Positions 48,287 to 49,352 are shown, numbered from the stretch's first letter. The stretch is 64,000 nucleotides of DNA from Candidatus Nezhaarchaeota archaeon (GCA_030055465.1 JASFYF010000001.1:830581-894580), one strand, 5' to 3'. Made by a program: numbers and translations. The notes: generated from the sequence alone by a model not told the origin.

Positions 48287-48848
48287 TCATGGTTTCAAGA
48301 TTCTCAGCACGTTTTCGCGATATGGCGGTCTTATTATGCCCTTCTCGGTTACTATGGCTGTTACGAGCTCGGGCGGAGTGACGTCGAAGGCTGGGTTCAA
48401 AACCTTGACGTCTATGGTTATGGGCTTCCCATTCACCTCGAGAACCTCCTTTGGATCCCTGCTCTCTATAGCCACCTGATCCGAGGTGGACTGCAAGTCG
48501 AATGTTGAAGTTGGCGCCGCCACGTAGAAGGGTATCGAAAACCTGCTGGCAACCACTGCCACAGTCAAGGTCCCTATCTTGTTCACCACGTGTCCATCCC
48601 TCAACACCCTGTCGGCGCCGACTATCACCTTGTTCACGATGCCTCGGCTCATGACGTAGCCCACCATGTTGTCGGTTATTAGCGTAACGTCTATGCCGTC
48701 CCTCTTCAACTCGTAGACCGTCAATTTAGCCCCCTGAAGTCTAGGCCTGGTCTCCGTGGCTATGACCCTCACCCTCCTGCCCTTCGCCACGGCGCTCCTG
48801 ATGATGCCTAGCGCCGTCCCATAACCAACCGTGGCTAGGGCACCCGCA
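48287..48848 (-). CDS. mtnA: MtnA / eIF-2B alpha-beta-delta family isomerase (methylthioribose-1-P isomerase-like), exon 2
   Basis: Begins with the third base of the Asn codon, then [19 protein letters not shown]...VIVGADRV. 562 nt to the stop. Confidence 0.8.
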
Positions 48849-48879
48849 CTCCGCCAGCTGAGCTTAGAGCCCAAGCTGT
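48849..48879 (-). other. predicted 31-nt BHB-type (HBh') intron in mtnA-like pre-mRNA
   Basis: Sense strand reads CUGC-AAA-CAGCU-(14 nt)-AGCUG-GCGG-AGU. Excision gives [10 protein letters not shown]; see finding. Confidence 0.65.
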
Positions 48880-49352
48880 TTGCAGTGCGTGAGAACCACG
48901 TCACCTTCATCTATTAGCTGGGCACCAATCTCACCCATCCTTCGATTTGCCTCCACGTCCTCCTCAGCCATCTTCAAGGCCTCCTTAACTGCGAGGCTCC
49001 GAGCCTCCTCAACGGTTTCAGCGCCTCTGATCACGGCAAGCATCCTTTCAACAGCCCAAAACAGGTTCCTAGCTGTGGGTCTAGAGCTTGAAAGCAGCTT
49101 TGCAGCCTCCTCTACGCTTCTCCTAAGCTCGCCTAGCTCGTTGGCTTTTGAGCGTATAACCGCCAACGCGATGCCCATAGCGGCGGCCACCCCGATGGCT
49201 GGGGCACCCCTAACGGTCATGTTCTTGATGGCCTCGGCTACTTCCTCAACGCTCCTGCACTCAACATACCTGCACTCCCATGGCAAGGCGTTCTGATCTA
49301 AAAGCCTGACTACATCGCCGTGGAGCTCAACGGTTCTAACATCAAAAAACAC
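48880..49352 (-). CDS. mtnA: MtnA / eIF-2B family isomerase, exon 1 (ends ...GDVVLTHC plus the first two bases, AA, of the Asn codon)
   Basis: Contains LLDQNALPWE...MTVRGAPAIGVAAAMG...GDVVLTHC. 473 nt. Confidence 0.8.

What the first reader, a model, noticed from the sequence alone, without database searches (positions are those of the whole stretch)
48848..48885. A 31-nt BHB-type (HBh') intron splits an MtnA/eIF-2B-family isomerase gene immediately after the catalytic-Cys codon
Two overlapping minus-strand ORFs (48864..49352 and 48287..48910) together make one MtnA / aIF-2B-like protein. The frame breaks inside the invariant motif THCNAGxLAT: ORF1 reads ...GDVVLTHCKQLGL*, and ORF2 carries ...[15 protein letters not shown]. 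The sense strand from 48885 down to 48848 reads CTGC-AAA-CAGCT-(TGGGCTCTAAGCTC)-AGCTG-GCGG-AGT. This gives a 4-bp helix H (CUGC/GCGG with one G-U pair), two 3-nt bulges (AAA and AGU), and a 5-bp inner helix h' (CAGCU/AGCUG) directly abutting H. I could not find an outer exon-exon helix, so this is the relaxed HBh' form that crenarchaeal endonucleases are known to accept. Cutting after the second bulge nucleotide removes 31 nt (48849..48879) and yields ACG CAC TGC AA|T GCG GGT GCC = [18 protein letters not shown]. That is exactly the consensus motif, and the total length becomes 344 aa. Caveat: the downstream frame stays open across the junction. A single +1 shift or a 1-nt sequencing error would therefore also give a continuous ORF, but it would insert about 10 residues into the active-site motif.
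Basis: partly seen in the sequence, partly recalled or inferred. Interest (0 to 1): 0.8.

Follow-up and report, generated by a model that had tools for sequence, protein, structure and literature searches.

The report
Splicing-type intron inside an archaeal enzyme gene
A 31-base insert splits an archaeal methionine-salvage enzyme gene right after its catalytic cysteine codon, and it has the RNA shape that the tRNA-splicing enzyme cuts; it appears to be only the second archaeal gene found with such an intron inside its coding sequence, and the same intron sits at the same spot in at least three deep archaeal lineages.

Summary
Minus-strand ORFs 48864..49352 and 48287..48910 are two halves of one MtnA gene. 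Removing 48849..48879 gives a 344-aa protein with [14 protein letters not shown] that aligns without a gap to solved MtnA structures.

A bare relaxed bulge-helix-bulge motif is common by chance (857 in the window against about 900 in resampled sequence). The case therefore rests on comparison. I recovered 16 distinct inserts of 22-39 nt at exactly this codon position, from Nezhaarchaeales (the window's clade), Aigarchaeota, Bathyarchaeia and unnamed lineages. In all of them:
- the 4-bp central helix pairs (100% of cells);
- all five inner-helix pairs show compensatory changes (98.6% paired overall, 18-51% when the register is slid);
- cutting after the second nucleotide of each bulge restores an Asn or Ser codon.

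Insert lengths cover all three residues mod 3, and 14 of 16 carry an in-frame stop. Both exons are under purifying selection (dN/dS 0.05-0.24). That rules out sequencing error, a pseudogene, frameshifting and ribosomal bypass.

In the searchable literature, cbf5 is the only reported archaeal coding-sequence intron of this type. Public annotation calls the N-terminal half a hypothetical protein. No RNA-level evidence was available here. Verdict: a new member of a known kind, interest 0.7.

The parts
48880..49352 (-). mtnA exon 1: GTG start at 49352, ending with the first two nucleotides (AA) of the split Asn codon
   Evidence: ORF list; spliced translation; NCBIfam and Pfam hits; dN/dS 0.06-0.24 in unsaturated pairs of relatives
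48849..48879 (-). 31-nt intron: A CAGCU U GGGCU CUA AGCUC AGCUG GCGG AG; stop UAA in the exon-1 frame at 48866-48864
   Evidence: same-site inserts of 22-39 nt in 15 other distinct sequences
48287..48848 (-). mtnA exon 2: begins with U, the third nucleotide of the Asn codon; includes the stop codon
   Evidence: gapless alignment to PDB 1T9K and 1T5O across the junction; dN/dS 0.05-0.14 in unsaturated pairs
48882..48885 (-). H-a: CUGC, the 5' strand of the central 4-bp helix (last nucleotide of the His codon plus the Cys codon)
   Evidence: pairs with 48851-48854 as C-G, U.G, G-C, C-G; helix H is paired in 100% of cells in 16 sequences
48879..48881 (-). 5' bulge AAA; inferred cleavage between 48880 and 48879
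   Evidence: bulge is A(A/G)(A/U) in all 16 sequences; cleavage position inferred from the BHB rule and the restored codon
48855..48878 (-). Inner hairpin h': CAGCU(48878-74) U(48873) GGGCU(48872-68) CUA(48867-65) AGCUC(48864-60) AGCUG(48859-55)
   Evidence: present in every minimum-free-energy fold; the five pairs next to H all show compensatory changes
48851..48854 (-). H-b: GCGG, the 3' strand of the central helix (inside the intron)
   Evidence: GCAG, GCGG or GUAG in all 16 sequences, always pairing with H-a
48848..48850 (-). 3' bulge AGU; inferred cleavage between 48849 and 48848
   Evidence: A(A/G/U)U in all 16 sequences; the U completes AAU (Asn) or AGU (Ser)
48845..48847 (-). GCG: 3' strand of a weak outer helix that pairs with CGC 48887-48889 (A 48886 unpaired); not conserved
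   Evidence: constrained fold; 64% of cells paired and no covariation

Best explanation
The 31 nt at 48849..48879 (minus strand) are a bulge-helix-bulge intron of the relaxed HBh' type inside the coding sequence of an MtnA (S-methyl-5-thioribose-1-phosphate isomerase, eIF-2B-like) gene.

Proposed mechanism:
1. In the pre-mRNA, exon nucleotides CUGC (the end of the His codon plus the Cys codon) pair with GCGG near the 3' end of the intron to form the 4-bp helix H.
2. A 10-bp hairpin stacks directly on H.
3. Two 3-nt bulges, AAA and AGU, lie on opposite strands at the two ends of H.
4. The archaeal tRNA-splicing endonuclease cuts after the second nucleotide of each bulge.
5. An RtcB-type ligase joins AA to U, creating the Asn codon of the invariant THCNAG motif and a 344-aa enzyme.
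6. Unspliced mRNA stops at UAA inside the intron and would give a 162-aa fragment lacking the catalytic domain.

Shown here: the sequence anatomy, the exact restoration of the motif, conservation of site and structure with compensatory changes in 16 distinct sequences from at least three deep TACK lineages, and purifying selection on both exons. Inferred: which enzymes act, the cleavage positions, and that splicing occurs in vivo.
For: - Gene identity: the spliced product scores 405 bits on TIGR00512 (cut-off 279) and 447 bits on NF004326 (cut-off 271). It aligns without a gap across the junction to PDB 1T9K ([12 protein letters not shown]) and 1T5O (LTYCNAGRLATV).
- Uninterrupted relatives: 155 of 160 related loci read THCN[A/T]G without interruption.
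- Same-site inserts: recovered in L001-3, L081-2, L161-181, with lengths 22, 24, 24, 27, 27, 28, 28, 29, 30, 30, 31, 31, 31, 31, 33 and 39 nt, covering all three residues mod 3.
- Structure: 98.6% of cells pair, against 18-51% with the partner slid by 1-3 columns. H is 100% paired with wobble-only variation. All 5 h' pairs change on both sides, in 25 cells, a count reached by 0 of 500 shuffles. The register was fixed by the homology-defined splice points, not by the pairing.
- Out-of-sample check: L180 and L181 were fetched after the rule was fixed, and both obey it.
- Prevalence: 75 of the 120 best N-terminal homolog clusters stop within 10 residues after the Cys, and 12 more read on out of frame. 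All 29 clusters closest to the window are cut off at the junction, and no full-length protein exceeds 64% identity to the window product.
- Selection: dN/dS is 0.05-0.24 in both exons, with no internal stops.
- Host machinery: the window carries tRNA-Gly(UCC) and tRNA-Leu(UAA) genes with 21- and 38-nt introns whose H helices (CUUC/GAAG, CUUA/UAAG) sit in the same register.
- Energetics: the BHB-constrained fold is the minimum-energy structure in L173 and L175 and lies within 0.2-5 kcal/mol of it in most of the others.
Against: - There is no RNA-level evidence. No assembled spliced transcript or full-length protein from the window's clade was found.
- In the window the BHB fold is 5.0 kcal/mol above the minimum at 37 C and 3.2 at 70 C. 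The rival fold pairs CGCACU (48889-48884) with AGUGCG (48850-48845) and buries the 3' splice site. In L170 the gap is 8.4 kcal/mol.
- The strict hBHBh' motif is not met, because the outer helix is weak and not conserved. Cleavage therefore needs an endonuclease that accepts relaxed motifs, and no endA gene lies in these 64 kb.
- The bare motif is as frequent as chance predicts.
- The 16 sequences are related by descent, so cell counts overstate the number of independent events.
Confidence: 0.9

Rival explanations
1. Assembly or sequencing error, or a decaying pseudogene: the insert is an artefact or an inactivating lesion, and no functional MtnA is made.
For: The two ORFs are out of frame in the window. 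NCBI annotation of a relative lists only a 162-aa hypothetical protein.
Against: The interruption sits at the identical codon position in independent assemblies from many samples, with different lengths and sequences. dN/dS is 0.05-0.24 in both halves, with no other stops or frameshifts. The insert keeps a base-paired structure through compensatory changes, which a neutral lesion would not do.
Confidence: 0.02
2. Translational recoding: the ribosome reads through by a +1 frameshift, by stop-codon readthrough, or by bypassing (hopping) over the hairpin, as in phage T4 gene 60.
For: A stable hairpin with a stop codon just after the break resembles a bypass element. In the window the downstream frame stays open across the junction.
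Against: Insert lengths fall in all three residues mod 3, so no single recoding event fits. Some would need +1, some +2, and some readthrough of one or two stops (L003 has two). Reading through would insert 7-13 unconserved residues and remove the invariant Asn from THCNAG, while solved structures align without a gap there. Read directly from the sequence: the only codon in the window matching a UGC take-off is UGC 48848-48846, and landing there resumes in the wrong frame (GGG UGC CCU...). None of these mechanisms explains conservation of helix H.
Confidence: 0.03
3. A true split gene: the N-terminal 162-aa fragment and a separately initiated C-terminal fragment are made as two polypeptides that assemble into an active enzyme.
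For: Gene callers predict two IF-2B ORFs at every such locus. Split genes are known in some archaea (established knowledge).
Against: The second ORF has no conserved start. Called lengths range from 93 to 191 aa, and the starts fall in different places, inside the insert, upstream of it or downstream in exon 2. The break falls inside the invariant active-site motif, between the Cys and Asn codons. A split gene predicts neither the conserved H/h' pairing nor the exact codon restoration.
Confidence: 0.03
4. The structure is cut by the splicing endonuclease but the exons are not religated: cleavage serves mRNA decay or down-regulation rather than splicing.
For: Yeast TSEN cleaves some mRNAs to start their decay (PMC10485636). 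No ligation evidence exists here.
Against: Every sampled member of the window's clade carries the insert, and no intact copy was found at more than 64% identity. Without ligation, the whole clade would have no way to make MtnA from this locus, yet both exons stay under purifying selection. The cut sites restore the codon exactly in 16 of 16 sequences, which matters only if the exons are joined. I did not check whether these genomes carry a second, more distant paralog.
Confidence: 0.02

Closest known systems
cbf5 pre-mRNA intron of Crenarchaeota (Aeropyrum, Sulfolobus; Watanabe 2002, Yoshinari 2006, Yokobori 2009 = PMC2738675)
   Same: A short BHB-type intron inside a protein-coding sequence with a relaxed cleavage motif. 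It occurs in lineages with heterotetrameric endonucleases, has a patchy phylogenetic distribution read as gain and loss, and is routinely mis-annotated as a frameshift or as two ORFs (PMC2738675, PMC10485636).
   Different: A different, unrelated gene (a metabolic isomerase rather than an RNA pseudouridine synthase). Different lineages (Nezhaarchaeales, Aigarchaeota, Bathyarchaeia rather than Desulfurococcales and Sulfolobales). The insertion is inside the catalytic motif. Splicing of cbf5 has been shown experimentally, and splicing of this intron has not.
HVO_1309 5'-UTR intron of Haloferax volcanii (Schwarz 2020, PMC7714728)
   Same: A BHB element in an mRNA that is processed by the tRNA-splicing endonuclease.
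   Different: It lies in the 5' UTR rather than the coding sequence. It occurs in a euryarchaeon with a homodimeric enzyme and a canonical motif. Its removal is not needed to reconstitute a reading frame.
Non-canonical archaeal tRNA introns with HBh'/hBH motifs (Marck and Grosjean 2003; reviewed in PMC4090602)
   Same: The same structural grammar: a 4-bp H with a 3-nt bulge closed by H and h', the second splice site lacking a proper outer helix, and sizes of tens of nucleotides. The window's own tRNA-Gly and tRNA-Leu introns use the same register for H.
   Different: The host RNA is an mRNA, so there is no tRNA body to help recognition. The exon half of H is fixed by the codons of a catalytic motif.
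HAC1/XBP1 unconventional mRNA splicing (IRE1 plus tRNA ligase/RtcB) in eukaryotes
   Same: Spliceosome-independent removal of a short intron from a coding region by an endonuclease that cuts in stem-loop or bulge structures. The exons are then joined by a tRNA-type ligase, and the splice changes the reading frame.
   Different: A different endonuclease family and a different recognition motif. It is regulated by ER stress. No regulation has been shown for the mtnA intron.

Membership tests
Archaeal bulge-helix-bulge intron | Central 4-bp helix H formed between the 4 nt that precede the last two exon-1 nucleotides and intron positions -6 to -3 | tested here: met
   Window CUGC/GCGG. Paired in 100% of cells in 16 distinct sequences, with only wobble-compatible one-sided changes. 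Same register as the window's tRNA-Gly and tRNA-Leu introns.
Archaeal bulge-helix-bulge intron | Two 3-nt bulges on opposite strands at the two ends of H, with the splice sites after the second nucleotide of each bulge | tested here: met
   Bulges are A(A/G)(A/U) and A(A/G/U)U in 16 of 16 sequences. Applying the rule restores AAU (Asn) or AGU (Ser) and the THC[N/S][A/T]G motif in every case. The actual cleavage chemistry was not tested.
Archaeal bulge-helix-bulge intron | Inner helix h' closing the 5' bulge | tested here: met
   4-12 bp in all sequences. The five pairs adjoining H are paired in 97.5% of cells, and all five show changes on both sides.
Archaeal bulge-helix-bulge intron, strict hBHBh' form | Outer exon-exon helix h directly closing the 3' bulge | tested here: not met
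   The window has CGC/GCG offset by one unpaired A. Across the 14 sequences of alignment A1 only 64% of cells pair, there is no covariation, and the one constant pair is forced by the His and Ala codons. I therefore file it under the relaxed HBh' class, not the strict form.
Archaeal bulge-helix-bulge intron | The host encodes a splicing endonuclease that accepts relaxed motifs ((alpha-beta)2 or epsilon2 type), plus an RNA ligase | not testable with these tools
   No endA homolog lies in the 64-kb window. Indirect support: two intron-containing tRNA genes flank the gene. For Aigarchaeota, a heterotetrameric enzyme is reported in Caldiarchaeum (PMC3082918). The subunit type was not determined for the endA genes next to mtnA in the other loci.
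Archaeal bulge-helix-bulge intron | Excision and exon ligation observed at the RNA level (spliced junction, circular or linear intron) | not testable with these tools
   A search for a full-length protein from this clade, which an assembled spliced transcript would yield, found none above 64% identity. No expression data were available.
MtnA / S-methyl-5-thioribose-1-phosphate isomerase (PF01008 IF-2B superfamily) | Score above the curated equivalog or subfamily cut-offs | tested here: met
   TIGR00512 405.3 bits against a cut-off of 279. NF004326 447.5 against 271. PF01008 319 bits. The ribose-1,5-bisphosphate isomerase equivalog TIGR00511 scores below its cut-off (242 against 314).
MtnA / S-methyl-5-thioribose-1-phosphate isomerase (PF01008 IF-2B superfamily) | Contiguous active-site motif with the catalytic Cys (THCNAG) and the downstream GADR Asp | tested here: met
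   The spliced product reads [15 protein letters not shown] and IVGADRV and aligns without a gap to 1T9K and 1T5O. That Cys and Asp are the catalytic residues rests on my knowledge of the B. subtilis enzyme (Cys160/Asp240). A paper search did not retrieve the source.
Programmed frameshift or translational bypass element | A constant frame relation between the two ORFs, and matching take-off and landing codons | tested here: not met
   Insert lengths mod 3 are 0, 1 and 2 in different lineages. The only UGC landing codon in the window resumes in the wrong frame (read directly).

The most novel reading that the evidence does not exclude
The intron is ancient and is kept for a reason. Under this reading there was one acquisition near the base of the TACK archaea, at a site whose invariant codons supply half of helix H. 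It was then retained in several lineages because it ties MtnA production to the activity of the tRNA-splicing machinery. The competing exon1:exon2 fold that hides the 3' splice site, the frequent in-frame stop and the widespread endA-mtnA gene adjacency would all belong to that control circuit. This would be the first regulated protein-coding intron in archaea.
Probability: 0.15. Interest if true: 0.85.

Novelty: new member of a known kind. Interest (0 to 1): 0.7.

Why it matters
In the searchable literature, cbf5 has been the only archaeal protein-coding sequence known to be interrupted by an endonuclease-spliced intron since 2002. [quoted passage not shown]

- **A second, independent case.** It comes with many natural sequence variants in at least three deep lineages, which gives a real comparative data set for three questions: how such introns are gained and lost, what a relaxed substrate minimally needs outside a tRNA context, and whether mRNA splicing by the tRNA machinery is regulated.
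- **A practical annotation problem.** These genes are currently annotated as fragments or hypothetical proteins. Metabolic reconstructions of Nezhaarchaeales, Aigarchaeota and Bathyarchaeia MAGs will therefore wrongly score the methionine-salvage step as missing.

Tried and rejected
- **Motif frequency.** I counted the bare relaxed motif in the window against resampled sequence. It is not enriched, so motif presence alone was dropped as evidence.
- **Window-wide screen.** I screened for BHB-rule excisions that merge two long ORFs. It recovers the mtnA intron but returns 61 other hits, most of which bridge the end of one gene to the start of the next on the same strand. It is too unspecific, and I did not follow it up.
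- **Endonuclease adjacency.** I asked whether the endA gene next to the split mtnA in several lineages is tied to the intron. It is not: endA adjoins mtnA in 112 of 179 loci, most of them intronless, and not in the window.
- **Transcript evidence.** I looked for a full-length protein from the window's clade, as an assembled spliced transcript would give. None was found.
- **Identifying the window's genome.** An exact look-up of a neighbouring protein found nothing in the collection. The clade assignment rests on 71-75% identity to Nezhaarchaeota/Nezhaarchaeales MAG genes.
- **Literature.** Six searches for a prior report of an intron in mtnA or eIF-2B-family genes, or in Nezhaarchaeota, Aigarchaeota or Bathyarchaeia protein genes, found nothing. 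A 2006 book chapter cited for predicted Sulfolobus protein-gene introns (Brugger et al.) could not be read.
- **Outer helix.** It is present in the window but not conserved.
- **Tree.** The neighbour-joining tree comes from one protein. I used it only to show that the distribution is patchy, not to count gains and losses.

Full report
**1. The observation**

On the minus strand, ORF 48864..49352 (162 aa) ends ...GDVVLTHCKQLGL*. The overlapping ORF 48287..48910 contains ...[15 protein letters not shown]. The sense strand from 48885 to 48848 reads CUGC AAA CAGCU-U-GGGCU CUA AGCUC-AGCUG GCGG AGU. Deleting 48849..48879 (31 nt) joins AA to U and gives one 344-aa ORF with [15 protein letters not shown].

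**2. What the gene is**

The spliced product passes the curated cut-offs of the MtnA models: TIGR00512 at 405 bits against 279, and NF004326 at 447 against 271. It also hits PF01008. It aligns without a gap across the junction to the solved structures 1T9K ([12 protein letters not shown]) and 1T5O (LTYCNAGRLATV). The window is archaeal. Two tRNA genes with introns at position 37/38 flank the gene: tRNA-Gly(UCC) at 48033-48131 with a 21-nt intron, and tRNA-Leu(UAA) at 49452-49577 with a 38-nt intron. In both, the four exon nucleotides before the last two exon nucleotides pair perfectly with intron positions -6 to -3 (CUUC/GAAG and CUUA/UAAG).

**3. Is the motif more than chance?**

Taken alone, it is not. 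A scan for a 4-bp H, 3-nt bulges and an inner helix of at least 5 bp finds 857 instances on both strands of the window, against 848-976 in resampled sequence. A looser screen that also required the excision to merge two long ORFs returned 62 hits, most of them gene boundaries. The improbable part is that the motif falls on the single (site, length) combination that homology demands, roughly 1.5e-4 per sequence. Everything else depends on comparison.

**4. Comparison within the window's clade**

The closest genomic relatives are Candidatus Nezhaarchaeota/Nezhaarchaeales MAGs, at 71-75% identity. All of them are interrupted at the same codon, by 27, 30 and 30 nt with in-frame stops. The next relative, at 60% identity, is intact, as are 155 of the 160 loci examined in total.

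A search of 5.8 billion proteins with the truncated N-terminal ORF found 29 clusters at 63-72% identity. All end ...THCKQLG, KQPG, KRLG, NRLGF and similar. DNA for three of them (L176, L177, L179) shows the predicted compensatory changes in the inner stem: U-A to C-G, A-U to G-C, and A-U to G.U. No full-length protein exceeds 64% identity to the window product. Every sampled member of the clade is therefore split, and the intron looks fixed there.

**5. Comparison beyond the clade**

Many more distant homologs (46-56% identity) also stop right after the Cys codon: 75 of the top 120 clusters, plus 12 that read on out of frame. I fetched DNA for nine of these clusters: P0045, P0093, P0038, P0085, P0089, P0113, P0086, P0078 and P0065. 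Each has an insert at the identical position. The hairpin sequences are unrelated to one another (UGACUUUC.., UGACCCGUC.., UGGCUCUUA.., UGGC.., UAGCCU.., UGGCCU.., CGAUCCUU..), but the plan is the same: YUGY, a bulge A(A/G)(A/U), a hairpin, then GCAG/GCGG/GUAG, then a bulge A(A/G/U)|U.

L180 and L181 were fetched after the rule had been fixed, and both obey it. Exact look-ups of neighbouring proteins place L167 in Aigarchaeota (its neighbours cluster at 90% or more with Candidatus Pelearchaeum maunauluense proteins). They place L175 in Bathyarchaeia. In a single-protein neighbour-joining tree the intron-bearing genes form six separate groups among intronless ones. I read that only as a patchy distribution.

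**6. Formal structure test**

I built register-matched sequences for the 16 distinct inserts: 8 nt of flank, H, the bulge, the first and last 5 nt of the hairpin joined by a dummy loop, H, the bulge, and 8 nt of flank. The register was set by the homology-defined splice points, not by the pairing.
- 98.6% of cells form standard pairs, against 18-51% when the 3' partner is slid by 1-3 columns.
- H is paired in 100% of cells, with only wobble-type one-sided changes. That is expected, because its 5' strand is the His/Cys codons.
- All five h' pairs change on both sides, in 25 cells, a count reached by 0 of 500 shuffles (for the first 14 sequences).

The sequences are related by descent, so these counts are not independent events. 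Even so, the hairpin has been completely rewritten between lineages while the pairing is kept.

**7. The outer helix**

The window has CGC (48889-48887) paired with GCG (48847-48845), with A48886 unpaired. Across the sequences this helix pairs in only 64% of cells and shows no covariation. Relaxed motifs are cut by (alpha-beta)2 and epsilon2 endonucleases (PMC4090602, PMC5829648, PMC12397907). The cbf5 mRNA intron also uses a relaxed motif (PMC2738675, PMC10485636).

**8. Rival explanations**

- *Sequencing error or pseudogene.* Excluded. The interruption recurs in independent assemblies with different lengths. dN/dS is 0.05-0.24 in both exons with no other lesions. The structure is maintained by compensatory change.
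- *Frameshifting, readthrough or bypassing.* Excluded. Insert lengths fall in all three residues mod 3, 14 of 16 carry in-frame stops, and any read-through would destroy the invariant THCNAG motif. In the window, the only codon matching a UGC take-off lands in the wrong frame.
- *Two-polypeptide split enzyme.* Unlikely. The second ORF has no conserved start, and the break lies inside the active-site motif.
- *Cleavage without ligation.* This would leave the whole clade unable to make MtnA from this locus, while both exons stay under purifying selection.

**9. Weak points**

There is no RNA or protein evidence. The BHB fold is not the computed optimum in the window (+5.0 kcal/mol at 37 C, +3.2 at 70 C). 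The rival fold pairs CGCACU (48889-48884) with AGUGCG (48850-48845) and hides the 3' splice site. No endonuclease gene lies within the window, so its subunit type is unknown.

**10. Comparison with what is known**

In the literature I could search, archaeal mRNA substrates of the splicing endonuclease are cbf5, where the coding sequence is interrupted (Desulfurococcales and Sulfolobales), and HVO_1309, where the intron lies in the 5' UTR (Haloferax) (PMC2738675, PMC7714728, PMC10485636). Searches for an intron in mtnA or eIF-2B-family genes, or for protein-gene introns in Nezhaarchaeota, Aigarchaeota or Bathyarchaeota, found nothing. Public annotation lists the N-terminal half in Nezhaarchaeota WYZ-LMO7 as a hypothetical protein. 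A 2006 book chapter with predicted Sulfolobus protein-gene introns could not be read, so priority cannot be fully excluded.

**11. Verdict**

It is a new member of a known kind: a second gene whose coding sequence carries a BHB intron. The scope is much wider than one genome, since the same site is occupied in Nezhaarchaeales, Aigarchaeota, Bathyarchaeia and further unnamed lineages. Confidence in the intron model is 0.9. Whether the intron is ancient, and whether it has a regulatory role, remain open.

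Noticed in passing
window 48033-48131 (-); L001 4195-4272, L002 1231-1308, L176 2742-2817, L177 2717-2794, L179 1412-1486, L081 3195-3272, L082 3199-3276: Default ARAGORN calls the tRNA just downstream of mtnA Trp(CCA). The intron-aware run calls it Gly(UCC) with a 21-nt intron (window 48071-48091). Seven loci of the window's clade have a tRNA-Gly(UCC) in the same place, about 140 nt after mtnA on the same strand, and there it has no intron. The mtnA-tRNA-Gly gene order is therefore conserved, and the tRNA intron is specific to the window's lineage.
   Followed up: partly
window 49452-49577 (+): tRNA-Leu(UAA) with a 38-nt intron (49492-49529). It is transcribed away from mtnA and starts 100 nt from mtnA's start codon. 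Default ARAGORN missed it. Rfam and the intron-aware run found it.
   Followed up: partly
L161 1862-2365, L170 1848-2378, L173 1764-2339, L175 1922-2437, L180 1625-2128, and about 100 further loci: A tRNA-splicing endonuclease gene (endA, 167-191 aa) lies directly next to mtnA in 112 of 179 loci, either upstream on the opposite strand or downstream. Most of those loci have no intron (Bathyarchaeia, Desulfurococcales and others). The pairing is widely conserved in TACK archaea, does not depend on the intron, and is absent from the window and from L001-L003. I have no functional explanation for it.
   Followed up: partly
window 48884-48889 with 48845-48850: In the minimum-free-energy fold of the window, and of L001, L003, L161, L164 and others, helix H is replaced by an exon1:exon2 helix (CGCACU with AGUGCG) that buries the 3' splice site. 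Exon 2 begins GCRG, which mimics the intron strand of H. This could be a structural switch or a by-product of the Ala-Gly codons.
   Followed up: partly
window 48864-48866; the introns of L001-L181: 14 of the 16 distinct introns carry a stop in the exon-1 frame. In the Aigarchaeota and Bathyarchaeia-type introns, UGA often follows the split codon directly. L180 (22 nt) and L181 (29 nt) have no stop and run on out of frame.
   Followed up: partly
L167 about 2983-2991; L175 about 2990-2998: The residue before the catalytic Cys varies in intron-bearing genes: TLC in the Aigarchaeota-type gene and TYC in a Bathyarchaeia-type gene. TYC also occurs in the solved structure 1T5O.
   Followed up: no
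P0005 (TDA34799.1) and P0167: NCBI lists the N-terminal half of the split gene in Nezhaarchaeota WYZ-LMO7 as 'hypothetical protein DSO05_06215'. A separate, intact mtnA labelled Nezhaarchaeales exists at only 61% identity, so the taxon as named holds both intron-bearing and intronless genes.
   Followed up: no
window 50149-51144 (+): The 331-aa ORF next to the locus is not present as an exact sequence among about 15 billion public proteins. The window's genome therefore appears not to be in that collection, at least with this gene call.
   Followed up: no
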